Positions 1 through 16,838 of a stretch of DNA of 64,000 nucleotides are shown here, in pieces. The DNA comes from a virus (taxonomy: Duplodnaviria; Caudoviricetes). The stretch lies in IMG/VR virus record IMGVR_UViG_3300027608_000010. The stretch is one strand, 5' to 3'. The notes under the pieces were generated by a model that did not search any database, had not been told where the DNA came from, and saw only the letters and a list, made by a program, of their open reading frames with translations. The translations under genes were made by a program, and so were the position numbers. The stretch's first letter is position 1, and every line of letters starts with the position of its first letter.

Positions 1-257
1 ATCAACCTTCGTTCACCCCTAACGGACTAGGTAACCCTAATGTGTTTACATATAGTCCCTGTAACTTAAACAGGGCTATACGAAAATTTAAAATTTTAAC
101 GAACATTACAACTAGTCTCAATCGACTGTGCTGTTTTATAATTTGCTTAGGCCGAGTCTACAAACTCGCTCCGAGTCCCTTGGTTCCAACCCTTTTTGCA
201 TCTCTGCGTGGGTTCTTACATTCGAGGACCACCTTGCTTTCTCAACTCATTAAATGT

Positions 258-286
258 ATTATACATCTAATTGGATTTATCGTCAA
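258..286 (-). promoter_or_regulatory. sigma70-type phage early promoter, copy 1
   Basis: Minus strand TTGACG-17 bp-TATAAT with an A-rich UP-like tract upstream; near-duplicate of 363-391 and 4040-4068 (shared TTGACGATAAA). Confidence 0.75.
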
Positions 287-362
287 TTCTTTTGTGTTGT
301 ATTTTTACGTCACTCAGAATCTTCAACTCACCTTTGAATCAATCTCTCAACTCATTAAACAT

Positions 363-391
363 AGTATAGCACCAAATGGGTTTATCGTCAA
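363..391 (-). promoter_or_regulatory. sigma70-type phage early promoter, copy 2 (tandem duplicate)
   Basis: Minus strand TTGACG-17 bp-TATACT; the downstream TTTAATGAGTTGAGA is shared with copy 1. Confidence 0.7.
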
Positions 392-440
392 ATTTTTTGT
401 TGTTGTATTTTTACTACAGAATTGTAATACTATTGTTTCT

Positions 441-515
441 TGGTCCGGCGTACAGGAATCGAACCCATATTCACGGTGTAGAAGACCGCTGTATTATCCG
501 TTATACTAACGCCGG
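441..515 (-). tRNA. trnR: tRNA-Arg(TCT)
   Basis: Acceptor CCGGCGT/ACGCCGG, anticodon arm GCGGT-CTTCTAC-ACCGT, GGTTCGATTCC T-arm, encoded CCA. Confidence 0.9.
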
Positions 516-524
516 AAAATTTGT

Positions 525-716
525 TTAGGCTAAGGATTGTCTGAAAACTGCTAATTCTGCATCAGTGAGAATTAGTTCCAGTTTGTTTTGTTTTGCTGAT
601 GGGTCTCTTGCCCAATCATATACTGTATAGATATGTACGTAGTTGCTACCCTCTGGTATATCTAACTTGCGTGTTTCACAAAATAGTTTATAACCTGCGT
701 TTTCACTAACTAACAT
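525..716 (-). CDS. hypothetical protein, 63 aa, within the tRNA array
   Basis: ORF with GGAG RBS, filling the gap between tRNA-Asn and tRNA-Arg. Confidence 0.65.
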   Translation of the reverse strand: MLVSENAGYKLFCETRKLDIPEGSNYVHIYTVYDWARDPSAKQNKLELILTDAELAVFRQSLA

Positions 717-735
717 ACTTACTCCATAAAATGTT

Positions 736-811
736 TGGCTCCACAGCCTGGGCTCGAACCAGGGACCAATTGATTAACAGTCAACTACTCTACCGACTGA
801 GCTACTGCGGA
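736..811 (-). tRNA. trnN: tRNA-Asn(GTT)
   Basis: TCCGCAG/CTGTGGA acceptor, GTTGA-CTGTTAA-TCAAT anticodon arm, CCA. Confidence 0.95.
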
Positions 812-821
812 ATGAATTACT

Positions 822-896
822 TGGTGCCGAATGTCTGGTTCGAACAGACGACCTATCGCTTACAAGGCGATTGCACTACCACTGTGCTAATTCGGC
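822..896 (-). tRNA. trnT: tRNA-Thr(TGT)
   Basis: GCCGAAT/ATTCGGC acceptor, ATCGC-CTTGTAA-GCGAT anticodon arm, CCA. Confidence 0.95.
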
Positions 897-914
897 ATAT
901 TTTTATTTAACTGA

Positions 915-957
915 AGTATATCACAGGGAAACTTTTCTGTCAAGTCCCCTGTGATAT
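915..957 (-). promoter_or_regulatory. sigma70-type promoter embedded in an 11-bp inverted repeat
   Basis: TTGACA(938-943)-17 bp-TATACT(915-920); ATATCACAGGG (918-928) and CCCTGTGATAT (947-957) form a perfect inverted repeat. Confidence 0.65.
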
Positions 958-959
958 TT

Positions 960-1520
960 TTACGACAATAAGATTCTACTGTGCTTTGGAACACCTGCAA
1001 GCAAGTAGTCCATTTGATCCGAAAGTATGTTGCGTTGTTGTAGAATCATGTTTTCATAGTGATTTGGTGCGTATGGGATGTACAACAATTCTAGACCACA
1101 TTCTTTTAACAGTTTGTGACCCTTCTTTGCGTTACAGTCCTTACATGCAGTAACCACATTCATCCAAGTGTTTTCACCACCTCGGCTCTTAGGCAGAATG
1201 TGGTCACGACTTAGATTATTATAATTGGGGAAATGTCCACCACAGTATGCACACACATATCGGTCACGACCGAATAGTGTACGGTTGCTTAGTGCAACGT
1301 TGGCATGCTTGTGTGGATTGAAACCATGACCCTTGATAGCAATTATGCTAGTAGTTTCTAGGTAACTCATTTCACCGTCATTTTGTACACCACCACGATA
1401 CTTAGCTACAACTTCTCCTAATGCCCATGCAATTGCATTCTTTGCATGGTAGGTAATTGCGTCATCGTATGAGATCCACTGTCGGGGAACTCCTGAGATA
1501 TCTAGTGCTAGAACAGCCAT
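960..1520 (-). CDS. HNH endonuclease (McrA/HNH_5-like)
   Basis: RDRYVCAYCG, SRDHILPKSRGG and NVVTACKDCNAKKG: Zn-finger plus HNH motif. Confidence 0.92.
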   Translation of the reverse strand: MAVLALDISGVPRQWISYDDAITYHAKNAIAWALGEVVAKYRGGVQNDGEMSYLETTSIIAIKGHGFNPHKHANVALSNRTLFGRDRYVCAYCGGHFPNYNNLSRDHILPKSRGGENTWMNVVTACKDCNAKKGHKLLKECGLELLYIPYAPNHYENMILQQRNILSDQMDYLLAGVPKHSRILLS

Positions 1521-1566
1521 TTTCTACTCCTTTGTTGCTATTGTCACTATAACTATTTAACTAGTT

Positions 1567-1642
1567 TGGAGGGTCGTAGAGGAATTGAACCCCTGACATC
1601 TTGGTTCGAAGCCAAGTACTCTATCCACTGAGTTAACGACCC
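1567..1642 (-). tRNA. trnR: tRNA-Arg(TCG)
   Basis: GGGTCGT/ACGACCC acceptor, CTTGG-CTTCGAA-CCAAG anticodon arm, CCA. Confidence 0.93.
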
Positions 1643-1645
1643 ATT

Positions 1646-1674
1646 ACTATAACAGATAATTGAATTACTGTCAA
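1646..1674 (-). promoter_or_regulatory. sigma70-type promoter directly upstream of tRNA-Arg(TCG)
   Basis: TTGACA-17 bp-TATAGT ending 3 nt before the tRNA 5' end. Confidence 0.6.
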
Positions 1675-1686
1675 TTATTTGTTGGC

Positions 1687-1717
1687 AAAAGAAATCCCGC
1701 ACTGTGCGGGATTTTTA
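1687..1717 (-). terminator. intrinsic terminator (potentially bidirectional)
   Basis: 10-bp stem AAATCCCGCA/TGCGGGATTT with T-rich tails on both strands, just after the stop of the 1730-2209 ORF. Confidence 0.8.
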
Positions 1718-1729
1718 AATGGTGAAAAA

Positions 1730-2209
1730 TTATTTTTTATAAAGCGGGCCGCGCCGATTATACGCATCCCAATTTTGTCCGTTACTAGTTAAACGATATT
1801 CTTCCCAATTTTCCCAATCAAATGCAGTATCTTCAGGAGCTCTATAATCACAATCTACGATTTCACTGCCTGTTTTGGTTGCTAAAACAGAAGAACTAAA
1901 ATTTTGTAAAAACCAGTCAAGTTGAGATTGATTATAAAATAATACAAATATAATAGCCGAGTCACTACCTACACCCTCAAGATGATGGCTATATATTAAT
2001 CCAGTTTCAGAGACAGCAGCCATAACAATTGGAAATTCAGTTTGATGTGGATTAGCTAGTCCCATATCTACTTGACTTTTATAATATTGTCGATGTCGAT
2101 TAAAATCTTCTATTGTTACGAGTTTTACTCCTTCAGTATTTAAGAAATCCTTATTCAATGATAATGAGGAATAAAGTACTAATTTTTTAGTGTAAATCCA
2201 TTCTTGCAT
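1730..2209 (-). CDS. hypothetical protein, about 159 aa
   Basis: ORF track 1730-2260; the GGAGA RBS favours ATG at 2209 (MQEWIY); no recognised motif. Confidence 0.7.
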   Translation of the reverse strand: MQEWIYTKKLVLYSSLSLNKDFLNTEGVKLVTIEDFNRHRQYYKSQVDMGLANPHQTEFPIVMAAVSETGLIYSHHLEGVGSDSAIIFVLFYNQSQLDWFLQNFSSSVLATKTGSEIVDCDYRAPEDTAFDWENWEEYRLTSNGQNWDAYNRRGPLYKK

Positions 2210-2248
2210 ATAAATTCTCCGTATATTTAATATACTATTTATCTTAAT

Positions 2249-2335
2249 TGGTACCCCCACTGAGATTTGAACTCAGATATCTTTTAAGATGCTCCCTTTT
2301 GAGGAGAGTGACTTTACCAATTTGTCTATAGGGGC
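2249..2335 (-). tRNA. trnL: tRNA-Leu(CAA)
   Basis: CTCTC-CTCAAAA-GGGAG anticodon arm, long variable arm, CCA. Confidence 0.92.
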
Positions 2336-2340
2336 ATTAA

Positions 2341-2416
2341 TGGTACCAAGAGTTGGGATCGAACCAACCACACCCGATTCTTCAGACCGGTGCTCTACCA
2401 ACTGAGCTATCTTGGC
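2341..2416 (-). tRNA. trnF: tRNA-Phe(GAA)
   Basis: GCCAAGA/TCTTGGT acceptor, CCGGT-CTGAAGA-ATCGG anticodon arm, CCA. Confidence 0.95.
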
Positions 2417-2422
2417 ATTGTT

Positions 2423-2498
2423 TGGGGAGTTACACGGGGAACGATCCCGTACTACCAGTTTCACAGACTAGGGTGCGAACCTCTACACTAGTAACTCC
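2423..2498 (-). tRNA. trnH: tRNA-His(GTG)
   Basis: 8-bp acceptor GGAGTTAC/GTAACTCC with encoded G-1, CTAGT-CTGTGAA-ACTGG anticodon arm, CCA. Confidence 0.92.
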
Positions 2499-2510
2499 AT
2501 AGAAAAGAAC

Positions 2511-2564
2511 AGGATGCTTATTTTTCAATTAAAAGTTGAATTTTTTATTTGCTGAACGCATCCT
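2511..2564 (-). ncRNA. mini tRNA-Lys(UUU) anticodon-mimic RNA, copy 1 (putative)
   Basis: AGGATGC-GTTCAGCAAATAAAAAA-TTCAA-CTTTTAA-TTGAA-AAATAA-GCATCCT: 7-bp closing stem, 5-bp stem with a CUUUUAA loop, no D or T arm, no CCA. Confidence 0.6.
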
Positions 2565-2569
2565 AAAAG

Positions 2570-2647
2570 TGGTCTGGGTAGGAGGATTTGAACCTCCAGC
2601 CTCCGAGTTCCAAGCCCGGCCGTCTACCAAGTTGACAATATACCCAG
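2570..2647 (-). tRNA. trnP: tRNA-Pro(TGG)
   Basis: CTGGGTA/TACCCAG acceptor, CCGGG-CTTGGAA-CTCGG anticodon arm, CCA. Confidence 0.94.
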
Positions 2648-2654
2648 TTATTTT

Positions 2655-2746
2655 TGGCGGAAGACAGAGGAGTCGAACCCCATCCCTGTTAAGAGAACCT
2701 GGTTTTCAAGGCCAGTCGGCGGACCATCCCACCTGCATTATCTTCC
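2655..2746 (-). tRNA. trnS: tRNA-Ser(TGA)
   Basis: GGAAGAT/GTCTTCC acceptor, CTTGAAA loop, long variable arm, CCA; C31-A39 mismatch. Confidence 0.92.
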
Positions 2747-2752
2747 ATTGTT

Positions 2753-2827
2753 TGGTGGACCGTAAGAGGATCGAACTCTTACTTCCGAGTTGCAAGCCCG
2801 GTGTGCTCCCATTATCACTAACAGCCC
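2753..2827 (-). tRNA. trnA: tRNA-Ala(TGC)
   Basis: GGGCTGT/ACGGTCC acceptor with the G3:U70 Ala determinant, CTTGCAA loop, CCA. Confidence 0.95.
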
Positions 2828-2837
2828 ATGAATAAGT

Positions 2838-2978
2838 TTTCGGGAACTAATTCGGTGTACACTTGAATTAGTTTGTCTCGTATACAAGAGTTTATCGACC
2901 TTTATAATCTACTGGTGTGTCACACATGCCGCCATGTGCTAGATTACAAGGGACTCAATCATATCGTCTATCCCGAAA
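2838..2978 (-). ncRNA. unidentified multi-branched structured RNA of about 140 nt between tRNA-Ile and tRNA-Ala
   Basis: Closing stem TTTCGGGA/TCCCGAAA; internal helices TGTAATCTA/TAGATTATA, GCACATG/CATGTGT, CTTG/CGAG and AACTAATTC/GAATTAGTT; G:U pairs favour the minus strand. Confidence 0.55.
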
Positions 2979-2980
2979 TT

Positions 2981-3055
2981 TGGTAGCCAATGATGGGAAC
3001 GATCCATCGACCCCCGCCTTATCAAGACGGTGCTCTACCACTGAGCTAATTGGCC
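2981..3055 (-). tRNA. trnI: tRNA-Ile(GAT)
   Basis: GGCCAAT/ATTGGCT acceptor, CCGTC-TTGATAA-GGCGG anticodon arm, CCA. Confidence 0.95.
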
Positions 3056-3063
3056 AAATTGTT

Positions 3064-3139
3064 TGGTAGTTGAGGTCGGACTCGAACCGACGATAGATAC
3101 CGTATGAAGGTATTGCATTAGCCACTATGCTACTCAACC
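3064..3139 (-). tRNA. tRNA with CAT anticodon (elongator Met or lysidine-modified Ile2)
   Basis: GGTTGAG/CTCAACT acceptor, ATACC-TTCATAC-GGTAT anticodon arm, CCA; lacks initiator features (no C1:A72 mismatch, no 3 G-C pairs). Confidence 0.88.
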
Positions 3140-3140
3140 A

Positions 3141-3210
3141 TATAAAAACACATTCTAGGGTAGTCGTACAACATACCCCCAGCCCCGGGAGCCGCGAATG
3201 TGTTTTTATA
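3141..3210 (-). ncRNA. long-stem structured RNA wedged exactly between tRNA-Thr(GGT) and tRNA-CAT
   Basis: Perfect 15-bp inverted repeat TATAAAAACACATTC/GAATGTGTTTTTATA (19 bp including the flanking tRNA ends) around a 40-nt GC-rich core. Confidence 0.55.
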
Positions 3211-3285
3211 TGGTGCTGATGGCGGGATTTGAACCCACGACCTCTTTCTTACCAAGAAAGTACACTACCACTGTGTTACATCAGC
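3211..3285 (-). tRNA. trnT: tRNA-Thr(GGT)
   Basis: GCTGATG acceptor 5' strand, CTTTC-TTGGTAA-GAAAG anticodon arm, CCA. Confidence 0.94.
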
Positions 3286-3289
3286 TAAT

Positions 3290-3366
3290 TGGTGCGACCG
3301 GAGAGATTCGAACTCCCGACTCCTAAGTTCGTAGCCTAGTACTCTATCCAACTGAGTTACGGTCGC
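3290..3366 (-). tRNA. trnR: tRNA-Arg(ACG)
   Basis: GCGACCG/CGGTCGC acceptor, CTAGG-CTACGAA-CTTAG anticodon arm, CCA. Confidence 0.95.
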
Positions 3367-3376
3367 ATTATAAAAC

Positions 3377-3433
3377 AGGATAGCATCTTTTTTCATTAAA
3401 AGTGAAATTGGATTTGTTTGCTGTTGCTATCCT
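3377..3433 (-). ncRNA. mini tRNA-Lys(UUU) anticodon-mimic RNA, copy 2 (putative)
   Basis: AGGATAGC-AACAGCAAACAAATCCAA-TTTCA-CTTTTAA-TGAAA-AAAGAT-GCTATCCT; same architecture as 2511-2564 with different stem sequences. Confidence 0.6.
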
Positions 3434-3438
3434 AAAAC

Positions 3439-3515
3439 TGGCATCCTGTACGGGATTCGAACCCGTGATCTCCTACTTGAAAGGCAAGCGTTCTAGGCCT
3501 CTAAACTAACAGGAT
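3439..3515 (-). tRNA. trnE: tRNA-Glu(TTC)
   Basis: ATCCTGT/ACAGGAT acceptor, CTTGC-CTTTCAA-GTAGG anticodon arm, CCA. Confidence 0.92.
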
Positions 3516-3522
3516 ATAAATT

Positions 3523-3596
3523 TGGCAGAGGGTACTGGGTTCGAACCAGTGATAACAGAGTCAAAGTCTGTGGTGTTACCGCTACACTAACCCCCA
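3523..3596 (-). tRNA. trnQ: tRNA-Gln(TTG)
   Basis: ACAGA-CTTTGAC-TCTGT anticodon arm, GGTTCGAACCC T-arm, CCA. Confidence 0.92.
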
Positions 3597-3660
3597 ACAT
3601 ATTTTTAATAGTCAAGTGCGTCCTTCAACCTTCACAGGGTCTAATTTTTTTCCTCGCACT

Positions 3661-3744
3661 ATGCTATTCTAAAACACACTCACCCGAATGGACATATCCT
3701 GCAAGAGTTCCGCCTACTGTCGGAAGTGTGTTTTAGAATAGCGT
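3661..3744 (-). ncRNA. long-stem structured RNA upstream of the first tRNA
   Basis: 18-20-bp inverted repeat (AT)GCTATTCTAAAACACACT / AGTGTGTTTTAGAATAGC(GT) around a 44-nt core with small hairpins; shares TAAAACAC/TAAAAACAC with the 3141-3210 stem. Confidence 0.5.
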
Positions 3745-3902
3745 GATGTATCTTTCAACATCCACACTATGATAGGGTTGATACCCTACCCAGTGATTTT
3801 AATCTCTACGTTGTCGCCATAGATTTCATCCTACTGTCCGCCCGTTTGTAACATTTTTATAGTGATGTATTCCGGCCCTCGTTGCCTATCAACACTTGTA
3901 TC

Positions 3903-4462: not shown

Positions 4463-5743
4463 ATGATATTTAATCCCAACGAACACACCGTTGTTTTTCT
4501 TAGCTACGATGAACCCAATTGTGATGAAAATTTTCAACACTTACTGACACTTAGACCAGATGCTCTCAGAGTACATGGTGTCAAGGGTTCTGATACCGCT
4601 CACAAAAAAGTTGCAGAGATATCATTAACTAAGAACGTGATTATAGTCGATGGTGACAATATTGTCAACCGTGATTTCTTCCATACTACTATTGAACTCA
4701 ATGATGATGTTGACCTTAGCACTAGTGTTTTAAGTTTCAGTGGGTTGAACTGTATCAACGGAACAAAATATGGTAACGGTGGCATCAAAGTCTGGCCCAC
4801 TGAACTGATAAAGAACATGCAAACGCATGAAAATAGCCAGAATCTTGAGACCAAAGTAGACTTTCACTTAGAAAATTATCTGCAATTGAATCATGCGGGT
4901 AGTACAGCTATGATTAGCAGTAGCCCAAAACAAGCATGGAGAGCAGGGTTCCGTGATGGTGTCAAACTATGTTTGAACGATAAGGGTGTGATATGCGAAC
5001 TTGATGAGATAGATTGGCGTAACTTTGACAGATTGTGGAACTGGATGCACATAGGGCAAGATGTTGAGAACGGATTATGGGCTATCTATGGTGCTAGGTT
5101 AGGTGTTTATATGACAGTCATCAAACGATTTGATTACACTGAAATAGAAGATTTTGATTACTTAGATAGAATTTTTAATAACGCAATATCATCTGTAAAC
5201 TTGATTGAAAAATGTAATAATTTGGGAAAAGCAATCAATCATATAAAGATAAAAGATATGTTATCGGTTGAACATAGCAAACGATACAAAGAAACAGTTA
5301 GTCCTGTTTATCGTAGCCCTGAACTGTTTTTAAAAGAACCACATAGCAAGGAGTACGACATTGTGTTCATTAGCTATCATGAACCAAACAGTGACTACAA
5401 TTATAAGAAACTATGTGAACGATTCCCGAGAGCAAAAAGAGTTGTTGGGGCAGTTGGATCACATCAAACATATATTCAGGCTGCTAAACTATGCTCAACT
5501 GACTATTTTTGGGTAGTAGATGCTAACGCAGAGATAGTAGATGATTTCAATTTTGATTATGTTGTTTCATTTTATGATATACTTAAAGTTAGGATATGGC
5601 GTGCAAGAAACGTTGTCACTGATATGGTATCCGGTTACGGCGGTGTTAAACTATTGCCAAGAACACCGACTATTAGAATGGACAATATTAAAATTGAGCA
5701 TGTCATGGTCGTCAGTAATATAACTAGAAGTGGTTCACAATGA
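4463..5743 (+). CDS. tandem GT-A-like glycosyltransferase-fold protein (two internal repeats)
   Basis: Two copies of VF(L/I)SY(D/H)EPN...RV.G..GS...VVD(G/A)(D/N) with a DxD-like motif and a YGxGG(I/V)K motif; the second copy ends early; ATG 4463 follows TAAATA. Confidence 0.6.
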   Translation: MIFNPNEHTVVFLSYDEPNCDENFQHLLTLRPDALRVHGVKGSDTAHKKVAEISLTKNVIIVDGDNIVNRDFFHTTIELNDDVDLSTSVLSFSGLNCINGTKYGNGGIKVWPTELIKNMQTHENSQNLETKVDFHLENYLQLNHAGSTAMISSSPKQAWRAGFRDGVKLCLNDKGVICELDEIDWRNFDRLWNWMHIGQDVENGLWAIYGARLGVYMTVIKRFDYTEIEDFDYLDRIFNNAISSVNLIEKCNNLGKAINHIKIKDMLSVEHSKRYKETVSPVYRSPELFLKEPHSKEYDIVFISYHEPNSDYNYKKLCERFPRAKRVVGAVGSHQTYIQAAKLCSTDYFWVVDANAEIVDDFNFDYVVSFYDILKVRIWRARNVVTDMVSGYGGVKLLPRTPTIRMDNIKIEHVMVVSNITRSGSQ

Positions 5744-6714
5744 CAGATTTTACATCAATACCCTGGACCAAGATTGTTAAGTTTGGTCAAGCAACTATGC
5801 TTGATAAGAATCTATTCTCTATCAGTTGGATACTAGGAAGATTCTGTAATTACAAATGTAGTTACTGTTGGCCCTATGCTAACACACAAATACCCGATCA
5901 TCAAGAACTAGAAGTCTATCTAAAGACAATGGACAACATCAGAATGCAAGCCGCCGGTAATGGATACACAAAGTTTCATTGGTCATTCAGTGGTGGTGAA
6001 CCTACAGCATACAAACACTTCTTAGTGTTAGCAGAACGTACATTGTATGATAGTATACACATGACTACTAATCTAAGTCCCGGCATTCAATGGTGGGAAC
6101 GATGGTTGAAGGCAACTGAATTTAGTAGACGCCGTAGTATTACTGCTAGCTTTCACCATGAGTTTGCAGATGAAAAGGAGTTTGGTGATAAGATATTGTT
6201 CTTGAACCAAAATGATGTATTTGTAACAGTCAATCAAGTAATGGTTCCAGAACAGTTTATGAATCTATATATTAGATGTAAGCGATTTAGTGAACGGGGA
6301 ATTAATGTTACATTAAAGCCACAGAGTGACCCAACTGCTAGTAAAGTAGTTGACGGATACACCGAAGATATGATACAATTGATGAGAAGAGGATTCCCGC
6401 AACATGTTAGGGAAGAAGAATTGTTACAAGTAAAATTAATAGACAATGAAGATAAAGTTTGGCACTTAGACCAAGCTGAACGATTCAATGCATTTGGCTT
6501 TAATAAGTTTGAAGGCTGGATGTGTAACAGTGGCTATCAAGGTATTGTTATACGTGAGAATGAAGTTAAACGTAGTTATAGTTGTCATGATCAAAGACTG
6601 GGAACACTAAGTGAGGGGTTTACTATTTTTGATAAGCCTACAATTTGTACTACCCCAAGCTGTGTTAGCAGTGCTGATAGCAAGATACCAAAAATTAAAT
6701 TAGGAAAAATCTAA
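5740..6714 (+). CDS. radical SAM protein with C-terminal twitch/SPASM-like Cys domain
   Basis: CNYKCSYC, FSGGEP, C-terminal CNSG...SC...CTTPSC. Confidence 0.92.
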   Translation: MTDFTSIPWTKIVKFGQATMLDKNLFSISWILGRFCNYKCSYCWPYANTQIPDHQELEVYLKTMDNIRMQAAGNGYTKFHWSFSGGEPTAYKHFLVLAERTLYDSIHMTTNLSPGIQWWERWLKATEFSRRRSITASFHHEFADEKEFGDKILFLNQNDVFVTVNQVMVPEQFMNLYIRCKRFSERGINVTLKPQSDPTASKVVDGYTEDMIQLMRRGFPQHVREEELLQVKLIDNEDKVWHLDQAERFNAFGFNKFEGWMCNSGYQGIVIRENEVKRSYSCHDQRLGTLSEGFTIFDKPTICTTPSCVSSADSKIPKIKLGKI

Positions 6715-8027
6715 TGGGGATGTTAAACACTATTAGAAGTTTTATTCGTAAACAACAAGCACTAAGAGTAATACGAAAAAAGAAAAACTCAAAAGAATTA
6801 TCACCCAAAGATGTAATATGTGCAGTACCTTGGATGCATCTAGCATTTGAACCTGATGGTAAAATTGTACCATGTTGTCTGACTAGTCCTTATAATTATT
6901 ATGCAGGAGATCTCACTACCGAACCAATTGAAAAGATTTGGAATAGCGATAACATGAAGTTGTTACGTAAAGAGATGATGGAAGGTCGTGAACCTAATAT
7001 ATGTTCTACGTGTTTCAACCAAGAAAGAGTTACTGGTGAGAGTTCCCGCATATTTCATAATAACGATTTTAAGAGTGTATTAAAAAACATACCAATCATT
7101 ACTGAAGCCGACGGAACCTGTAACAAAATGGAATTGAAATACTGGGACTTTCGTTTCAGTAATCTATGTAACATGAAGTGTCGTAGTTGTGGCCCAAGAT
7201 TTAGTTCTGCTTGGGTACCCGATGCTAAAAAGCTAGGTTGGATTTCAAATCAAGAAAAAGTTTGGAATATTGAATCCGTTAATAATATGTCAAATTTTGA
7301 TTTCCTAAAAGATCAGGTTAAACATGTTGAACGAGTTTATTTTGCAGGTGGTGAACCCTTAATCATGCCAGAACATTGGCAAATACTTGATATGTTGATT
7401 GAGAATAAGCGCACTGATACATATATTTCATACAATACAAATGCATCTACTCTTACTTATGGCAAAAAGAATGCGTTAGATTATTGGAAGTTATGGAAAC
7501 CCGGTAAGGTTGAAGTTTGGACAAGTATTGATGAGATAGGTGAAAGAGCCGAGCTATTACGTTCAGGAACTGTTTGGCATAAAGTTGAAGATAATTTAAA
7601 ACAAATGGCAGCACTGGACAACATTGTAGTTCGCCCCGGAATCACTGTTGGTGCTTGGAATGTATTCAGACTCCCTGAAATCATTGAGCATTTAGTAAAT
7701 ATAGGTGTAATTACTAGTAAGCACAATCATCAAAATTTCTTTATCAATCTATTACAGTTTCCAGAACACTATCATGTAAGTATTCTTCCGGATCATTTCC
7801 GCAAAACAACATTAGGAAAATTGAAGACTTTCATTAAAGAGTTTAATGCAAAACATAAAACATCTATCGACAACCGTTTCACTCATATCATACACGAATT
7901 AGAAAAACCTCATAGTATGAAAAATCGTTTGAAATTTATAGTAATTTCTAACAGTATAGATAAAGTAAGAGAAGAAAATATATTCAACATGATACCAGAA
8001 CTTCAAATTTTAAAGGAACTAAAATGA
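6714..8027 (+). CDS. radical SAM protein with N-terminal twitch/SPASM domain
   Basis: CAVPW...PCC...CSTC, then CNMKCRSC and FAGGEP. Confidence 0.92.
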   Translation: MGMLNTIRSFIRKQQALRVIRKKKNSKELSPKDVICAVPWMHLAFEPDGKIVPCCLTSPYNYYAGDLTTEPIEKIWNSDNMKLLRKEMMEGREPNICSTCFNQERVTGESSRIFHNNDFKSVLKNIPIITEADGTCNKMELKYWDFRFSNLCNMKCRSCGPRFSSAWVPDAKKLGWISNQEKVWNIESVNNMSNFDFLKDQVKHVERVYFAGGEPLIMPEHWQILDMLIENKRTDTYISYNTNASTLTYGKKNALDYWKLWKPGKVEVWTSIDEIGERAELLRSGTVWHKVEDNLKQMAALDNIVVRPGITVGAWNVFRLPEIIEHLVNIGVITSKHNHQNFFINLLQFPEHYHVSILPDHFRKTTLGKLKTFIKEFNAKHKTSIDNRFTHIIHELEKPHSMKNRLKFIVISNSIDKVREENIFNMIPELQILKELK

Positions 8028-8818
8028 CACAAAGAATTTTAATTATGGGACTACCTGGATCAGGTAAAACTACATTAGCACAAGAATTGCAAAAACAATT
8101 ACAAAATGCTAACAAATTAGTAGGTTGGTTAAATGCTGACGAAATCCGTGAACAGTACAATGACTGGGATTTTTCAGAGTCAGGACGCATTCGCCAAGCA
8201 AAAAGAATGCGTAAATTAGCCGACAAACTTACTGCATATGATTATATGATTGCTGACTTTGTAGCACCATTAGTAGAAATGCGTAATCTATATAAAGCAG
8301 ATTGGACTATTTGGGTAGATACTATCCGTGAAGGTCGTTATGCAGATACCAATGCTATGTTTGTAGAACCCGAAGTATATGATTTCCGTATCACTGAACA
8401 AAATTGTGAGAAATGGGCTGAATTTATTACAGATCACATTGTTGAAAATCGCAGACGTCCTGTTTTTAATTGGAAAAAAGAAACGGTGCAGATGTTGGGG
8501 CGCTGGCAACCATGGCATGATGGACATCGTGCATTATTTGATAAACTGATACAACGTACTGGACAAGTTGTCATACAAATTCGTGATGTACAGGGTTGGC
8601 AAGGCAGTAATCCATTTGAAATTAACCAAGTTACTAAGTTTATTCGTAGAGATTTAGATCCAATATATCAAGGACAATATGAAATACAAGTAGTACCTAA
8701 TATTGTTCACATTGGATGGGGTCGTGGAGTTGGATATACCTCGGGCGAAGAGACATTTGATGATGCTGTTACGGATATTAGTGCTACAAAAATACGCAAG
8801 GAATTAGGCCTTGAATGA
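8024..8818 (+). CDS. adenylyl-sulfate-kinase-like P-loop kinase fused to an HxGH nucleotidyltransferase
   Basis: GLPGSGKT P-loop, LNADEIR, IADFVAP (CysC-like); C-terminal MLGRWQPWHDGH and ISATKIR. Confidence 0.8.
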   Translation: MTQRILIMGLPGSGKTTLAQELQKQLQNANKLVGWLNADEIREQYNDWDFSESGRIRQAKRMRKLADKLTAYDYMIADFVAPLVEMRNLYKADWTIWVDTIREGRYADTNAMFVEPEVYDFRITEQNCEKWAEFITDHIVENRRRPVFNWKKETVQMLGRWQPWHDGHRALFDKLIQRTGQVVIQIRDVQGWQGSNPFEINQVTKFIRRDLDPIYQGQYEIQVVPNIVHIGWGRGVGYTSGEETFDDAVTDISATKIRKELGLE

Positions 8819-8859
8819 CAATAAGATACACTGAGAAAAACATCTGATAAGTAATTAAT

Positions 8860-9483
8860 ATGAAAATTGATACTGAACATTTACATTTTTGGATGCAGGC
8901 TATACGCCAAAGTCCTGATCCCATGCGTACACTTGATGGATTTTGGAGTGGGCAACTCAAAAGTAAAGAATGGTTAATTGAAAAATTAGAACCATATGTT
9001 CATAAGCCATCTTTCATTGAGATACACGGTGGCTGGTTAGGAATATTATCTAGTATGATATTCCAAAGTAATATTCCAGTAACTCAAATTTGGAGTACTG
9101 ATATTGATCCGGCATGTGAACCAATAGCATCAATGATGAACAAACAAGAAGAAATGGTCGGTAGATTCAAAGCTATTACCGCAGACATGTGCCATCTTTC
9201 TTATTTGCGTCAACAAGAAAACGAATGGTCTGTAGGTGACATAATTATTAACACTAGTTGCGAACATTTAACACAAGCACAATATGATTTTTGGTTGACT
9301 CAATTGCCTAAAACAGCATTGGTAGTAGTGCAGAGTAACAACTATGATCTACCAGAACATGTTCGTACCGCAAAAACATTAGCAGAATTTAAAGAACAAA
9401 GTAAGATGAATGCAATGTGGTCTGGTTCACTAACAACACCACTATATGAACGTTGGATGATTATAGGATATAAGAATGTTTAG
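8860..9483 (+). CDS. class I SAM-dependent methyltransferase-like protein
   Basis: IEIHGGWLG motif I, WSTDIDP, ITADM, IINTSCEH. Confidence 0.6.
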   Translation: MKIDTEHLHFWMQAIRQSPDPMRTLDGFWSGQLKSKEWLIEKLEPYVHKPSFIEIHGGWLGILSSMIFQSNIPVTQIWSTDIDPACEPIASMMNKQEEMVGRFKAITADMCHLSYLRQQENEWSVGDIIINTSCEHLTQAQYDFWLTQLPKTALVVVQSNNYDLPEHVRTAKTLAEFKEQSKMNAMWSGSLTTPLYERWMIIGYKNV

Positions 9484-10567
9484 TTTTGATGAGTTGTCAA
9501 TAATACATATTGAAATTTCAAATAGGTGTCAGGCCTCCTGTCCTATGTGCCCTAGAAATATTCACGGGGGCATTACTAATCCTCTATTACCCATCAATGA
9601 TTGGAAAATAGATGATTTTGTAAATATATTTTCTAAGGAAATACTAGAACAAGTTAATACGGTTAATTTCTGTGGTAACTTTGGGGATCCATTGATGAAC
9701 AATGATCTGATTAAGATGTGTGAATACTTAAAAACTAATGCCCCAAATATAGAAGTATTGATTCACACAAATGGTAGCATGAGGTCTACCATTTGGTGGA
9801 AAACATTGTATCAATCATTACCAAATAAACATAATGTGATTTTTGCCTTAGATGGATTAGAGGATACACATCATTTATACCGCATGAATACCGATTACAA
9901 TCTGATCATCAAAAATGCTAAAACTTTTATTGCTGAAGGTGGAAACGCTGAATGGTGTTTCATTAGATTCAAACATAATGAACATCAGGTTAATGATGTT
10001 GAACAATTATCCAAAGAATTGGGGTTTAAGAAATTCACATTGAAAAACAGTAGACGAATAGGTAAGGGGCAATTGTTTCCAGTAGTTGACTCCTTAGGTA
10101 AAGTTTTATATAACATTGAAACTCCTACTGATAGCGTGATTAAATTTGTTGGTAAAAAAGAATTATCAGGGCATCAACAATGGGAAGATGCCGACAACAT
10201 AAATTGCCTAGCAATTACACACAAAGAATTGTACATTGATGCTCATTATCAACTTAGTCCTTGCTGTATGATAGGAGCGTTCTTGTATACAAATTATGAT
10301 ATTGATTTTCTTAAAAAATTTAACTTGTATCAAGAAGATTCCGTAATTGAGGAGGGTATAAAAATAAAAAATCAAGTATTAGAGTTTCCTCGTCTTAATG
10401 TGTTAGATACGGGTTTAAAGAATATCATTAATACTGAACAATGGCAAACAATGTGGCAGAAAAAATGGAAGGATCGATCAAGTTCTACTTGTATTATAAT
10501 GTGCGGATCATCTAGCCCGTACCTTGGTGTAGATGAACAACGAATTAAGATAAAAACCAATGTTTAA
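9476..10567 (+). CDS. radical SAM/SPASM-like protein (paralog of 10560-11618)
   Basis: CQASCPMC, FCGNFGDP, FALDGLEDTHHLYR, C-terminal SPCC...CIIMC. Confidence 0.92.
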   Translation: MFSFDELSIIHIEISNRCQASCPMCPRNIHGGITNPLLPINDWKIDDFVNIFSKEILEQVNTVNFCGNFGDPLMNNDLIKMCEYLKTNAPNIEVLIHTNGSMRSTIWWKTLYQSLPNKHNVIFALDGLEDTHHLYRMNTDYNLIIKNAKTFIAEGGNAEWCFIRFKHNEHQVNDVEQLSKELGFKKFTLKNSRRIGKGQLFPVVDSLGKVLYNIETPTDSVIKFVGKKELSGHQQWEDADNINCLAITHKELYIDAHYQLSPCCMIGAFLYTNYDIDFLKKFNLYQEDSVIEEGIKIKNQVLEFPRLNVLDTGLKNIINTEQWQTMWQKKWKDRSSSTCIIMCGSSSPYLGVDEQRIKIKTNV

Positions 10568-11618
10568 GTTTAATGTATTAAATCAGTTACATTTAGAAAT
10601 AACCAATAACTGCCAAGCCAGTTGTCCCATGTGTAATAGAAACATTAACGGTGGATTAGATAATCCACTAATCAAAATACAAAATTGGTCTTTGGAAGAT
10701 TTTAAATCCATCATGTCCTTAGAGATACTTCATCAAATTAAAAGTTATTACTTTTGTGGTAACTTTGGTGATCCTATGATGAATAACGACTTAATTGAAA
10801 TGTGTAGTTATTCTAAAACCGTAGCGCCTGAGGTTCATATAAGTATTCACACTAACGGTGGCGCTAGGACTACACAATGGTGGAGTGAATTGGCTATTTC
10901 TCTTCCAAATAATCACAATGTTGTATTTGCCTTAGATGGATTAGAGGATACACACCATTTGTATAGAATCAATACAAAATATGAAACAGTGATTAAAAAT
11001 GCCAAAGCATTCATTGCCGCTGGAGGAATAGCTGAATGGGTATTCATTAGATTCAAACACAATGAGCATCAAGTAGAGAATGCAAGACAGCTTGCAAATG
11101 AAATGGGGTTTTCTAAATTTACTATTAAGAATAGCAGTCGATTTATTTTAGAACCACAAGTTAAGGTAATGAATCGTGATGGAACTTTATCTCATTATAT
11201 AGAACCTGCATCAGATACTCCTTTAAAATTCATTGACAGGAAAACTATAGATTCGTATAAAGACGTATTAGAGCATTCAAAAATAGAATGTAGAGTACAA
11301 AAAAACAAAGAAGTGTATATTGATGCTTATAAAAATTTATATCCATGTTGTTGGGTGTCAAGTGTCCCTTATAGTCACATTCCAAAAGATGGTGCTTCTA
11401 CTGTTAGGACGCATATGTTAGAACAACACCATGAACTAATGAGTAAATTAGGAGATACCAATACGCTTATTCGTTCTGTAAAAGAAATCATAGAAAGTAA
11501 TGAATATCAAAACGTTTGGGATAATTATTGGAACACTAATAAATTAATAGTGTGTGCGAGGACATGTGGGGTGAACACCTCGTTTGCTAAACCTATGGAT
11601 CAAATTGTAAATGAGTGA
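10560..11618 (+). CDS. radical SAM/SPASM-like protein (paralog of 9476-10567)
   Basis: CQASCPMC, FCGNFGDP, YPCC...CARTC. Confidence 0.92.
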   Translation: MFKFNVLNQLHLEITNNCQASCPMCNRNINGGLDNPLIKIQNWSLEDFKSIMSLEILHQIKSYYFCGNFGDPMMNNDLIEMCSYSKTVAPEVHISIHTNGGARTTQWWSELAISLPNNHNVVFALDGLEDTHHLYRINTKYETVIKNAKAFIAAGGIAEWVFIRFKHNEHQVENARQLANEMGFSKFTIKNSSRFILEPQVKVMNRDGTLSHYIEPASDTPLKFIDRKTIDSYKDVLEHSKIECRVQKNKEVYIDAYKNLYPCCWVSSVPYSHIPKDGASTVRTHMLEQHHELMSKLGDTNTLIRSVKEIIESNEYQNVWDNYWNTNKLIVCARTCGVNTSFAKPMDQIVNE

Positions 11619-12996
11619 AAAAATAAAAAATTATATTAAATTAATAGAAGAACGTACAGGATCTCCTACGTTTTGTGCTTTACCCTGGATTCACTTAGCT
11701 ACTCGACCCAACGGTGACGCTAGACTATGTTGTGTTACTAATGCAAGTGGTGCAAGTACAGGAGATCACACTGTGGGTCTGGTGAAGAAAGAGAACGGCA
11801 AACCTGCCAACTTTGGACGTGAAACCCCATTGGAATCATTCAACAATGAATACATGCGTGATGTGCGATTAACTATGCTAGACGGAAAGATTCCTGCTAG
11901 TTGTACTAAATGCTTTGAAGAAGAATCGAACGGCGTAGTAAGTAAACGTCTATGGGAAATGTATGAGTGGAATCGTGATGGTTTAGATTTTAATAAACTC
12001 ATTGATGAGACTGATGAGACTGGTAAAGTGCCACCTATCATTCGTTACTTAGACTTGCGATTAGGACATACATGCAATCTAAAGTGCGTGATGTGTAGCC
12101 CGCATGATAGTAGCAAATGGTTGCAAGACTATGATAAGTTAATAGCTAAAACAAAAAGCACTATAGTTATCAAACAAGTAGAGTTTGACAAGTCTGAATT
12201 CAATAATACTTGGTATGAAAAGCCAGAATTCTGGGACGATATCTTTGAGCAGATTCCAAACATCACACAACTATACTTTGCCGGCGGTGAACCACTAATG
12301 ATTAAAGAACATCGTAGATTCTTGAATGAGATAATCAAGCGAGGATATGCTAAAAATATAAATCTACGTTACAATAGCAATGGCATATTTGTTAATGAAG
12401 ATATCATTAATGTTTGGAGTCAATTCAAACAAGTTAGATATGCATTTAGTATTGATGGAATTTTTGACCGTAATCATTATATTCGGTTTCCCACTAATTG
12501 GGAAGACATTGAACGTAGTTTATGGTTAATGGATTCGGCACCGGACAATATACATTGTGCTATTGCATGTGCAGTGCAAGTGTTTAACGTTAAACATATC
12601 ATTGACTTTGCTAAATGGAAACTATCACAGGGTTTTAAGAAAATCAATAAATTTAAACTAGACGAGTATGAAACCGGTGGCGGAATTATTAATCTACACT
12701 TACTGTATATCCCTACCTTCTTAAGTGCTAGGATTCTACCACAAGAAGATAAAGAGCAGTTAGTAAGAGACTTTGCAGAGTTTAAACAATGGTTATGGGA
12801 TAACTACAGACAAGATGATAACTTCTGGCATGACAATCCCTATGGATGGAAGCGTTGGGAAGGTATCTTAAAATTTATAATGGCCGAAAACCATACTCAT
12901 TTACTTCCTGACTTTAAAGAATATGTAAATAACTTAGATAACATACGAACAACTGATGCAAAAACAATTTTCCCCGAACTAGTAAACATATTATGA
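11611..12996 (+). CDS. radical SAM protein with N-terminal twitch/SPASM domain
   Basis: CALPW...LCC...CTKC, then CNLKCVMC and FAGGEP. Confidence 0.92.
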   Translation: MSEKIKNYIKLIEERTGSPTFCALPWIHLATRPNGDARLCCVTNASGASTGDHTVGLVKKENGKPANFGRETPLESFNNEYMRDVRLTMLDGKIPASCTKCFEEESNGVVSKRLWEMYEWNRDGLDFNKLIDETDETGKVPPIIRYLDLRLGHTCNLKCVMCSPHDSSKWLQDYDKLIAKTKSTIVIKQVEFDKSEFNNTWYEKPEFWDDIFEQIPNITQLYFAGGEPLMIKEHRRFLNEIIKRGYAKNINLRYNSNGIFVNEDIINVWSQFKQVRYAFSIDGIFDRNHYIRFPTNWEDIERSLWLMDSAPDNIHCAIACAVQVFNVKHIIDFAKWKLSQGFKKINKFKLDEYETGGGIINLHLLYIPTFLSARILPQEDKEQLVRDFAEFKQWLWDNYRQDDNFWHDNPYGWKRWEGILKFIMAENHTHLLPDFKEYVNNLDNIRTTDAKTIFPELVNIL

Positions 12997-16117: not shown

Positions 16118-16838
16118 TTGCCCATCCTCTTTCTTTACACCAGAAGCATTCCCCGCATTCTGGTACATGTTGTCCTATCTCATATGTTTCATATGTAATA
16201 TCAGGAAATTCACCTTCACAACTACGTGTAGTAAAGAACAGATCCATGATATTTAAGTCTTTATACTGTTTAACAACCCAATCTTTCTCAATAAATCTAA
16301 AGGGGTGAATTGCATCTCTATCCATATGTTTAGTATAACGCAAATGTTGATTATCGTCAGTAGGTTCAATATTTCTCTTATCCATTCCACCTAAGTCAAT
16401 ACCTCTAGGATTATGGGTGACTGCATTATAATATGCATGTACATCTTCATGGAAGCAAATGTATTCAGCGTAACTACGTATCTCCGTGATATCACCTGAT
16501 ACTAGTTTACCATATTCATCAGTTAATGTTGGGCCAGTGTCACCCCATTCTAAGTCAGGTGGAATGAAGTTTTCATATCGGGTAAAGTGTATGTTTTTAA
16601 ATTTACGTATCAGATAACTGTAAACATCCAATCCATTATACTTTTGCCACGGGCGTGATTTCCACATACGTACATGACTTATTATAAACAAATCAATGTC
16701 AAGTTTATTCTCTGTTATATGCTTACATAATAGATATGCAAGCAAAGCACTATCAGCTCCGCCACTAAGACTAATAGCAATACGCCGGTAGTCGTTACTA
16801 AATGGTATCTTCACCCCATCAACTGTAAAATCATTCAT
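16101..16838 (-). CDS. PP-loop adenine-nucleotide alpha-hydrolase, QueC-like
   Basis: ISLSGGADSALL PP-loop; C-terminal RSCEG...CGECFWCKER Zn motif. Confidence 0.7.
   Translation of the reverse strand: MNDFTVDGVKIPFSNDYRRIAISLSGGADSALLAYLLCKHITENKLDIDLFIISHVRMWKSRPWQKYNGLDVYSYLIRKFKNIHFTRYENFIPPDLEWGDTGPTLTDEYGKLVSGDITEIRSYAEYICFHEDVHAYYNAVTHNPRGIDLGGMDKRNIEPTDDNQHLRYTKHMDRDAIHPFRFIEKDWVVKQYKDLNIMDLFFTTRSCEGEFPDITYETYEIGQHVPECGECFWCKERGWAIAQNK

What the first reader, a model, noticed from the sequence alone, without database searches (positions are those of the whole stretch)
2511..3433. Two mini-RNAs (2511-2564, 3377-3433) presenting an exact tRNA-Lys(UUU) anticodon loop: candidate anticodon-nuclease decoys
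Seen in the sequence: two ~55-nt elements sit between tRNA genes on the transcribed strand. Each has a 7-8-bp closing stem (AGGATGC/GCATCCT; AGGATAGC/GCTATCCT), a conserved CAGCAAA linker, and a 5-bp stem with an identical 7-nt CUUUUAA loop (TTCAA/TTGAA versus TTTCA/TGAAA). The stem sequences differ between copies while pairing is kept. D arm, T arm and CCA are absent, and no tRNA-Lys gene is present in this window. Established: CUUUUAA is the anticodon loop of enterobacterial tRNA-Lys(UUU), the target of PrrC and of the PARIS effector AriB. Inference: these RNAs are released during tRNA-precursor processing and act as decoys or inhibitors of Lys-anticodon nucleases. They could instead be substrates or sensors for anticodon-modifying or RNA-repair enzymes.
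Basis: partly seen in the sequence, partly recalled or inferred. Interest (0 to 1): 0.85.

Follow-up and report, generated by a model that had tools for sequence, protein, structure and literature searches.

The report
Ro60-like partner RNAs displaying tRNA-Lys anticodon
The two ~55-base elements are real, conserved small-RNA genes of a large, apparently unpublished phage RNA family: a shared "handle" displays a copy of a tRNA anticodon arm, and the family travels with a phage gene for a Ro60-like ring protein, so it is probably a viral Y-RNA-like particle aimed at proteins that bind tRNA.

Summary
Both elements exist exactly as described, on the tRNA-sense (-) strand at 2511-2564 and 3377-3433. 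They belong to a large family in uncultured freshwater phages and in Ralstonia phage RSP15 and Stenotrophomonas phage DLP_6. I found over 150 copies by pattern and 177 covariance-model hits in 100 loci.

The family shares a 7-8-bp terminal stem kept by compensatory changes, then CAGCAAA, a variable "cargo", and a CCUGUU tail. The cargo is often a 5-bp/7-nt hairpin identical to a genuine anticodon loop (Lys, Ser, Tyr, Asn, Thr, Arg, Glu). Longer members carry whole or permuted tRNA-like domains.

The family is tied to a DUF2828/DUF7788 protein whose model matches Ro60/TROVE. A handle RNA lies about 25-100 nt upstream of that gene in 66 of 76 loci chosen by the protein alone. Near-identical relatives of this window have the pair about 11 kb beyond the window start, and both tRNA-Lys genes as well.

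The best reading is a Y-RNA-like partner RNA of a phage Ro60-like protein, with the tRNA-Lys anticodon arm as bait. Rfam's only likeness is to Dictyostelium Class I RNAs, below threshold. This scan has noted the family before on other DNA, and I found no paper describing it.

The parts
2511..2564 (-). Element A, a 54-nt handle RNA with tRNA-Lys(UUU) anticodon-arm cargo. Outer stem AGGAUGC/GCAUCCU, CAGCAAA at 2554-2548, inner stem UUCAA/UUGAA, loop CUUUUAA at 2535-2529.
   Evidence: Covariance model R1 scores 76.8 bits, but the element was in the training set. Rfam RF01414 scores 30.0 bits over the full model length.
3377..3433 (-). Element B, a 57-nt handle RNA with the same cargo loop. Outer stem AGGAUAGC/GCUAUCCU, CAGCAAA at 3423-3417, inner stem UUUCA/UGAAA, loop CUUUUAA at 3402-3396.
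   Evidence: R1 scores 77.4 bits. RF01414 scores 20.3 bits.
2565..2569 (-). 5' spacer CUUUU between the CCA end of tRNA-Pro and element A. In the family it is usually (A/G)UUUU or AGUUA, and it fits an RNase E-type A/U-rich site (inference).
3434..3438 (-). 5' spacer GUUUU between the CCA end of tRNA-Glu and element B.
2498..2510 (-). 3' tail GUUCUUUUCUAUG of element A, up to tRNA-His. The G and UU directly after the stem are more than 90% conserved in the family.
3367..3376 (-). 3' tail GUUUUAUAAU of element B, up to tRNA-Arg(ACG). It also scores as a -10-like hexamer in a promoter-like match.
441..3596 (-). The part of the phage tRNA array inside the window: 15 called tRNAs plus one uncalled tRNA-Ser(UGA)-like gene at 2659-2746. 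The array hosts both elements. In near-identical relatives it continues at least 10 kb beyond base 1 and ends with a third handle RNA and the Ro60-like gene.

Best explanation
The two elements are genes for small stable RNAs of a widespread phage 'handle-plus-cargo' family. The handle is a 7-8-bp terminal stem, single-stranded (A)CAGCAAA and a 3' CCUGUU. By analogy with Y RNAs, it is probably the docking site for a phage Ro60-like ring protein (DUF2828 + DUF7788/vWA). In this phage lineage that protein is encoded at the end of the same tRNA operon. The cargo here is a copy of the tRNA-Lys(UUU) anticodon stem-loop. The RNAs are most likely cut out of the polycistronic tRNA precursor by the host tRNA-processing enzymes, then bound by the Ro60-like protein. 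The displayed anticodon arm would then act as bait or tether for a protein that recognises the tRNA-Lys anticodon loop, such as an anticodon nuclease of a host defence system or an anticodon-modifying enzyme. Shown: the family, its structure, the anticodon mimicry, the placement in arrays, the genetic linkage to the protein and the Ro60-like fold of that protein's model. Inferred: RNA-protein binding, processing to a discrete species, and the bait function.
For: The family is real. Over 150 copies (109 distinct) were found by pattern and 177 model hits in 100 loci. The family also occurs in the isolates RSP15 and DLP_6. Structure: outer-stem pairs 14-79 and 15-78 each show four Watson-Crick pair types with 0 of 104 unpaired. 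The inner stem shows 4-6 pair types. The covariation score is 0.41, against 0.105 for shuffles and at most 0.114 for slid controls. About 30 G-U cells favour the tRNA-sense strand. Placement: 124 of 152 copies start 4-8 nt after a same-strand tRNA. Mimicry. Longer members hold D/anticodon/T arms or a permuted T arm - capped acceptor - D arm inside the same handle, which is the Y RNA/YrlA design. Protein link, RNA first: PF11443 is present in 5 of 5 large records carrying the RNA and in 0 of 14 control genomes. The gene lies within the flanks of at least 17 array loci. Protein link, protein first: in 80 loci chosen by the protein alone, 66 of 76 assessable loci have a model hit ending about 25-100 nt upstream, and all 106 hits are on the gene's strand. 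This lineage: relatives 97-99% identical to the window start carry a third handle RNA (47.9 bits) about 25 nt before a 475-aa DUF2828+DUF7788 ORF, about 10.8 kb beyond base 1 and on the array strand. Fold: the AlphaFold2 model has pLDDT 69. Its top 13 PDB matches are all Ro60/TROVE (E 8e-8 to 1e-4, about 500 aligned columns), and RO60 proteins top the Swiss-Prot models. Transcription: contigs of four freshwater metatranscriptome runs cover both elements and bridge them to neighbouring tRNAs.
Against: No binding experiment exists and none could be computed here. The Ro60-like gene is not in the window itself (Pfam scans of ORFs of at least 150 aa). In the relatives it lies about 13-14 kb from these two copies. 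The protein model has only moderate confidence, and sequence-level similarity to TROVE is marginal (E 0.096). RNA-library contigs cannot show discrete ends and may contain DNA. Ten of the 76 protein-first loci had no hit at E <= 0.01. Many family members have cargo loops that are not anticodon-like, so anticodon display is not the only role of the family. Nothing here identifies the protein that the bait would meet.
Confidence: 0.55

Rival explanations
1. Free-standing decoys. The minis are released from the tRNA precursor and, without any protein partner, soak up or inhibit Lys-anticodon nucleases such as PrrC, RloC or PARIS AriB.
For: The loop is an exact 7/7 copy of the tRNA-Lys(UUU) loop. 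Other members copy loops of Tyr, Asn, Thr, Arg and Ser tRNAs. By established knowledge several of these are targets of known anticodon nucleases. The elements sit in tRNA arrays, which are thought to counter tRNA-targeting defences (PMC11464382 and PMC12409363 appeared in the search; I did not read them).
Against: This reading does not explain the invariant handle or its tight linkage to the Ro60-like gene. It does not explain cargos that are whole or permuted tRNA-like domains, or cargos that are not anticodon-like. The phages' own tRNA-Lys has the same unaltered loop, so there is no sign of a 'resistant tRNA plus sensitive decoy' pairing. The A/U-rich 5-bp stem differs from real tRNA-Lys stems. 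No nuclease was tested.
Confidence: 0.15
2. Cis-acting punctuation of the tRNA operon. The elements would be processing signals, internal promoters or weak terminators rather than trans-acting RNAs.
For: They sit in tRNA-like slots with U-rich flanks on both sides. Element B overlaps a promoter-like match, ATGAAA-18-TATAAT. The stem followed by GUUUU resembles a terminator tail.
Against: The putative -35 lies in the inner stem, which varies freely with compensatory changes. Element A has no acceptable -10. An 8-bp stem closing a 40-nt interior makes a poor terminator. Punctuation does not explain exact anticodon-loop copies, swappable tRNA-like cargos or the constant position in front of the Ro60-like gene.
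Confidence: 0.1
3. Minimal or degenerate tRNA-Lys genes. These would be either decaying pseudogenes or 'armless' tRNAs that still decode.
For: There is an acceptor-like 7-8-bp stem and an anticodon arm in tRNA-like order. Longer family members retain T and D arms, which suggests descent from tRNAs.
Against: There are hundreds of copies with strict handle conservation and covariation, so they are not decaying. No CCA is encoded, whereas the neighbouring tRNAs encode it. By established knowledge bacterial EF-Tu and the ribosome need the acceptor/T-arm helix. Full tRNA-Lys(UUU) and tRNA-Lys(CUU) co-occur in the arrays. ARAGORN in mitochondrial mode and the Rfam tRNA model do not call them.
Confidence: 0.03

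Closest known systems
Ro60 (Rsr/TROVE) with Y RNAs: bacterial and phage YrlA/YrlB/Yrn1 (Rfam RF02553; Chen et al. 2014, PMC4201824) and Thermus phage phiLo Ro60 with Yrl1/Yrl2 (PMC12135203)
   Same: A small RNA closed by a stem of its 5' and 3' ends carries a short conserved single-stranded motif beside that stem and a variable effector module that mimics tRNA. The long family members have the T arm - capped acceptor - D arm order, as YrlA does. The RNA is encoded next to a ring-shaped HEAT-repeat + vWA protein, and phage versions exist. The protein model here matches Ro60 structures over its full length.
   Different: The protein hits Pfam DUF2828 and DUF7788, not TROVE, and sequence similarity to TROVE is marginal. 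The RNA motif is CAGCAA(A), not GNCGAAN0-1G or CGAA. The two window copies have only an anticodon arm as cargo and lie about 13-14 kb from the gene, inside a tRNA array. Rfam YrlA does not match them. PNPase tethering, known for Ro60, is untested here.
Class I RNAs of Dictyostelium (Rfam RF01414; Kjellin et al. 2021, PMC7919456)
   Same: Length is 42-65 nt. A 6-8-bp stem joins the ends, and its sequence varies with compensatory changes. The 5' G is conserved. The conserved motif ...CAGCAA lies directly after the 5' stem strand. The 3' end is CUGU. The interior is variable and A/U-rich. RF01414 is the only Rfam family to align full-length to the elements: 30.0 and 20.3 bits here and 23-32 bits for five relatives.
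   Different: All scores fall below Rfam's gathering score of 41.5. There is no DUSE promoter, because the elements sit in a bacterial-type tRNA operon. The hosts are bacteriophages, not amoebae. The known Class I partner is the RRM protein Rnp1A/CIBP. Whether the likeness reflects homology or convergence is open.
Phage tRNAs that counter anticodon nucleases (for example the T5 tRNA-Lys that neutralises PARIS; PMC11464382, seen but not read)
   Same: Both are phage-encoded, lie in tRNA arrays and concern the tRNA-Lys(UUU) anticodon loop.
   Different: Those are complete, chargeable tRNAs that replace cleaved host tRNA. These are 54-57-nt RNAs without D arm, T arm or CCA, and they carry a protein-linked handle.

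Membership tests
   two variable pairs each show 4 Watson-Crick types, with 0 of 104 unpaired. A and B differ by a paired insertion (GC versus AGC).
   Invariance of CAGCAAA is partly imposed by my search patterns. Model-found variants read CAGCCAA (DLP_6) and CAGCAAU (RSP15; L010 and L045 members).
   The protein is not in the 64-kb window and no whole genome is held. The feature is met in relatives 97-99% identical to the window start and in 66 of 76 protein-first loci.
Y RNA / YrlA (RF02553) | GNCGAAN0-1G motif near the 5' end (Rsr-binding region; PMC4201824) | tested here: not met
   The motif is absent from both elements. The conserved motif here is CAGCAAA.
Y RNA / YrlA (RF02553) | tRNA-like domain with T arm, acceptor-like stem-loop and D arm | tested here: not met
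   A and B hold only an anticodon-type hairpin. The domain is present in long family members elsewhere.
Y RNA / YrlA (RF02553) | Within about 4 kb of, and on the same strand as, a TROVE-domain gene; reaches the Rfam gathering score | tested here: not met
   No YrlA match covers either element. The partner gene is of DUF2828 type and lies about 13-14 kb away in relatives.
Dictyostelium Class I RNA (RF01414) | Short stem joining the ends, conserved 5' G, 3' CUGU, length 42-65 nt | tested here: met
   Alignment to the Rfam model. Features as defined in PMC7919456.
Dictyostelium Class I RNA (RF01414) | 11-nt motif CCUUACAGCAA, with positions 3, 6, 9, 10 and 11 nearly invariant | tested here: inconclusive
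   CAGCAA (positions 6-11) is present in both elements. Positions 1-5 match only in part: A aligns as GUU-CAGCAA, and B has AGCAA there.
Dictyostelium Class I RNA (RF01414) | Rfam gathering score of 41.5 bits; DUSE promoter about 60 nt upstream | tested here: not met
   The elements score 30.0 and 20.3 bits. A tRNA gene ends 5 nt upstream of each.
tRNA (RF00005) | Cloverleaf with D and T arms, detected by the Rfam tRNA model or ARAGORN | tested here: not met
Anticodon stem-loop mimic of tRNA-Lys(UUU) | 5-bp stem closing a 7-nt loop identical to that of genuine tRNA-Lys(UUU) | tested here: met
   Both elements carry CUUUUAA. The loop is identical to 41 of 42 phage tRNA-Lys(UUU) genes of related arrays. 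The stem is supported by covariation.
Anticodon-nuclease decoy or inhibitor | Binding to, cleavage by or inhibition of PrrC, RloC or AriB | not testable with these tools
   No tool here models RNA-protein binding.

The most novel reading that the evidence does not exclude
Large phages carry a programmable Ro60-like ribonucleoprotein. One ring protein (DUF2828/vWA) binds a set of handle RNAs whose swappable cargos copy parts of tRNAs, here the tRNA-Lys anticodon arm. The particle would intercept or redirect host proteins that attack or modify those tRNAs, such as anticodon nucleases of defence systems. The unexplained Class I RNAs of social amoebae would then be the eukaryotic counterpart of the same handle, pointing to a second, ancient Y-RNA-like system shared by viruses and eukaryotes.
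Probability: 0.15. Interest if true: 0.9.

Novelty: new variant of a known kind. Interest (0 to 1): 0.75.

Why it matters
If the reading holds, this is a second kind of Ro/Y-RNA particle. It has its own protein family, its own RNA handle and modular tRNA-part cargos, and it is common in environmental phages with large tRNA arrays and in at least two cultured phages. It would give a concrete function to DUF2828/DUF7788 proteins, which also occur in bacteria and eukaryotes. It would add an RNA-display mechanism to the phage-host conflict over tRNAs. It would also offer the first lead on Dictyostelium Class I RNAs, whose molecular function has been unknown since 2004. The system can be tested directly, because RSP15 (Ralstonia) and DLP_6 (Stenotrophomonas) are isolates.

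Tried and rejected
- **ARAGORN in mitochondrial (armless tRNA) mode** did not call the elements.
- **Megablast of the array against GenBank phages** found no close relative, only a tRNA-Ala match.
- **No whole genome is held for the window**.
- **Internal promoter or terminator:** I considered this because of one promoter-like match at B. I rejected it because the would-be -35 covaries as a stem and A lacks a -10.
- **Clustering of ORFs in the flanks of about 85 array loci** gave no protein family present in most flanks; the best was 16 loci. The protein link only appeared after searching for PF11443.
- **Pfam and PHROGs scans of window ORFs** found no TROVE, DUF2828, RtcB, RNA ligase or Pnkp.
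I repeated it without them as A4.
- **Literature searches:** the 'anywhere' search for CAGCAA was uninformative. The DUF2828 search gave only plant and tardigrade papers.
- **RNA-library contigs** show presence but not RNA ends, strand or level. The higher summed depth over element A in two runs cannot be interpreted.
- **Bacterial-genome scan**: the true hits are phage-like tRNA-array contigs in MAG bins. Three Bacteroidetes hits and two others are not clearly family members. This gives no evidence for a cellular copy.
- **AlphaFold DB cluster search** confirmed DUF2828/DUF7788 relatives, but organisms were masked. I could not check whether Dictyostelium has the protein.
- **Complex prediction** was not used because it cannot take RNA.
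Full report
**Observation.** All 15 called tRNA genes of the window lie on the - strand between 441 and 3596.
- Element A (2564->2511): AGGAUGC, then GUU-CAGCAAA, an A/U linker, UUCAA-CUUUUAA-UUGAA, AAAAUAA, GCAUCCU, followed by GUU.
- Element B (3433->3377): AGGAUAGC, then AA-CAGCAAA, a linker, UUUCA-CUUUUAA-UGAAA, AAAAGAU, GCUAUCCU, followed by GUU.
- Two independent patterns each match twice in 64 kb, against 0.03 expected.
- Each element begins 5 nt after the CCA of a tRNA (Pro for A, Glu for B). A ends 13 nt and B 10 nt before the next tRNA (His, Arg-ACG).
- Neither ARAGORN, including its mitochondrial mode, nor the Rfam tRNA model calls them.

**A large family.** Most matches shared the same spacing and a closing ATCCU, which the pattern had not required.
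- A looser local search found 152 copies, 109 of them distinct.
- A covariance model built from 104 distinct copies found 177 hits in the first 100 loci.
- The model also found copies in two cultured phages, Ralstonia phage RSP15 and Stenotrophomonas phage DLP_6, where nothing is annotated at those places.
- The window holds just the two copies.
- The stem covaries strongly. The two variable outer pairs show GC/AU/CG/UA and CG/GC/UA/AU with no unpaired cell in 104 sequences. The inner stem shows 4-6 pair types.
- The covariation score is 0.41, against 0.105 for shuffled and at most 0.114 for slid controls. About 30 G-U cells favour the tRNA-sense strand.
- 124 of 152 copies start 4-8 nt after a same-strand tRNA of many different identities, and about 90 are followed by another tRNA within 13 nt. 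The elements therefore occupy tRNA-like slots in arrays of 20-40 tRNAs.

**Cargo.** The part between the two handle strands varies.
- Lys (CUUUUAA) is the commonest single loop. About 35 of the 119 loci found by a loop-agnostic pattern carry it, while the 84 newly found loci carry other loops.
- Among the 45 distinct short members with a non-Lys loop, which my searches did not constrain, 18 have a 7-nt loop identical to a genuine tRNA anticodon loop of these same arrays. The identities are Ser-UGA, Tyr-GUA, Arg-UCU, Asn-GUU, Thr-UGU and Glu-UUC. Composition-matched random loops would give 0.7.
- The phages' own tRNA-Lys(UUU) has CUUUUAA in 41 of 42 cases. The minis therefore copy the normal loop. 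They co-occur with full tRNA-Lys(UUU) and tRNA-Lys(CUU) rather than replacing them.
- In L052, whose array has the same gene order as the window, the copy at the position of element A has CUUGUAA instead. Cargo identity changes even between close relatives.
- In two metatranscriptome runs a relative has 103 other letters in place of 52 nt inside the scaffold of element B (table 5).
- Longer members (74-136 nt) carry, inside the same handle, either a D-like hairpin + anticodon arm + T arm, or a permuted set of T arm - capped acceptor hairpin - D arm. That is the architecture of bacterial Y RNAs of the YrlA type (PMC4201824).

**Known RNA families.** At gathering thresholds Rfam finds only tRNAs in the window.
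- With permissive thresholds, the only family aligning to the elements over its full length is RF01414, the Class I RNA of Dictyostelium. It scores 30.0 bits (E 0.003 in a 1.5-kb search) for A and 20.3 bits for B, and 23-32 bits for five relatives. The gathering score is 41.5.
- The shared features are the ones that define Class I RNAs (PMC7919456): a short covarying stem joining the ends, a conserved 5' G, CAGCAA directly after the 5' strand, a 3' CUGU and a length near 60 nt.
- The DUSE promoter is absent. I treat this as a striking likeness, not as membership.

**Link to a Ro60-like protein.** I reached the Y-RNA-like reading and the Class I likeness before consulting earlier notes of this scan. 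Those notes say the same CAGCAA handle has been seen many times next to DUF2828/vWA genes. I tested that claim in four ways.
- RNA first: PF11443 is present, above its cut-off, in all 5 large records carrying the RNA (RSP15, DLP_6 and three IMG/VR contigs) and in 0 of 14 control genomes. By tblastn the gene lies within the flanks of at least 17 array loci.
- This lineage: contigs 97-99% identical to the window's first 1.6 kb extend the array at least 10 kb past base 1, with 20 more tRNAs including Lys(UUU) and Lys(CUU). They end with a third handle RNA (47.9 bits) about 25 nt upstream of a 475-aa ORF that hits DUF2828 and DUF7788. The ORF is on the array strand, about 10.8 kb beyond the window start.
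- Protein first: 577 viral contigs encode relatives of that ORF. In the best 80 loci, 66 of the 76 with upstream sequence have a model hit ending about 25-100 nt before the gene. All 106 hits lie on the gene's strand.
- Fold: an AlphaFold2 model (13-sequence alignment, pLDDT 69, pTM 0.63) has Ro60/TROVE structures as its top 13 PDB matches. These include Deinococcus Rsr, Thermus phage phiLo Ro60, and Xenopus and human Ro60 (E 8e-8 to 1e-4, about 500 aligned columns). RO60 proteins also top the Swiss-Prot models. A sequence profile reaches TROVE chains only marginally (E 0.096).

The window itself has no such gene.

**Expression.** Six freshwater metatranscriptome runs hold 25-42% of the sampled words of the array stretch. 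Contigs from the four runs I laid cover both elements and bridge them to neighbouring tRNAs, some with no mismatch. This fits co-transcription with the tRNAs. It cannot show discrete ends or exclude DNA carry-over.

**Interpretation.** The best-supported reading is that A and B are partner RNAs of a phage Ro60-like protein, analogous to Y RNAs.
- The handle would be the protein-docking module and the tRNA-Lys anticodon arm the displayed module.
- Canonical Ro60-Y RNA particles use the variable module to tether other proteins. Examples are PNPase in Deinococcus and with phage phiLo Ro60 (PMC12135203). Comparative genomics has linked TROVE proteins and their tRNA-like partner RNAs to RNA repair (PMC7824862).
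- A displayed anticodon arm would most simply serve as bait or tether for proteins that read the tRNA-Lys anticodon loop.
- Binding, processing and the target are all inferred.
- Rivals are weaker for the reasons given in their entries: free decoys without a protein partner, cis-acting punctuation, and degenerate or armless tRNA.

**Novelty.** I found no paper on DUF2828 proteins with CAGCAA RNAs, and no Rfam family covers them. The scan's own notes report the family on other DNA more than a hundred times. Those notes are unverified AI notes, except for the parts I re-tested here. I class this as a new variant of a known kind (Ro60/Y RNA), with a distinct protein family, a distinct handle and anticodon-arm cargos.

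Noticed in passing
window 5740-16168, 24040-25083 and neighbours up to about 28400: An unusually dense block of at least 9 radical-SAM genes, several with SPASM domains. It also holds an APS-kinase-like P-loop protein (8024-8818), a sulfotransferase (19624-20256), a TauD-type dioxygenase (22860-23927), a fatty-acid-desaturase-like protein and two Asp/Asn beta-hydroxylase-like proteins. It looks like a large modification or biosynthesis island next to the tRNA array.
   Followed up: partly
window 2659-2746 (-): A tRNA gene missed by ARAGORN. It has a long variable arm and the loop CUUGAAA, so it is tRNA-Ser(UGA)-like. It scores 36.3 bits with the Rfam tRNA-Sec model, below the gathering score.
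   Followed up: partly
window 3140-3210, 3655-3745 and 2828-2980 (-): Three other inter-tRNA spacers are closed by long inverted repeats of 15-17 bp (for example UAUAAAAACACAUUC...GAAUGUGUUUUUAUA). No Rfam match was found. They may be further structured RNAs or processing elements of the array.
   Followed up: no
window 960-1520 (-): An HNH homing-endonuclease gene is inserted inside the tRNA array.
   Followed up: partly
window 230-420 (-): Two copies of a roughly 110-nt repeat, each carrying a strong promoter-like site (TTGACG-17-TATAAT or TATACT), lie downstream of tRNA-Arg(UCU).
   Followed up: no
L031 6859-6984 and 27 other loci (for example L245 4833-4958): A conserved 42-aa basic, Trp-rich peptide gene starts about 20 nt after the 55-nt Lys-type mini in several arrays. 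In other loci it lies a few hundred nt after the Ro60-like gene. It is absent from the window. It may be a third component of the system.
   Followed up: partly
L120 3217-3405 (Ralstonia phage RSP15): A handle (AGGAUAGA ... UCUAUCCU, with CAGCAAU) encloses a cargo of about 170 nt and unknown nature, just upstream of tRNA-Leu.
   Followed up: no
L121 1372-1645 and 4354-4602 (Stenotrophomonas phage DLP_6); L060 7267-7686; L132 1516-1898: Phages of this group also encode a permuted (two-piece type) tmRNA (RF04321, 106-137 bits). DLP_6 also has an RNase P RNA-like segment of 54.7 bits, below the gathering score of 100. L132 has a tmRNA with tag ANDSVYSLAA.
   Followed up: no
L141, L142, L147 (Bacteroidetes and Muribaculaceae genome contigs): An identical 57-nt element, AGGAUCCCG-UUUA-CAGCAAA...CAGGAUCCU-GUU, overlaps a terminator-like hairpin. 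It occurs in three bacterial assemblies without tRNAs nearby and may be a cellular relative of the handle.
   Followed up: no
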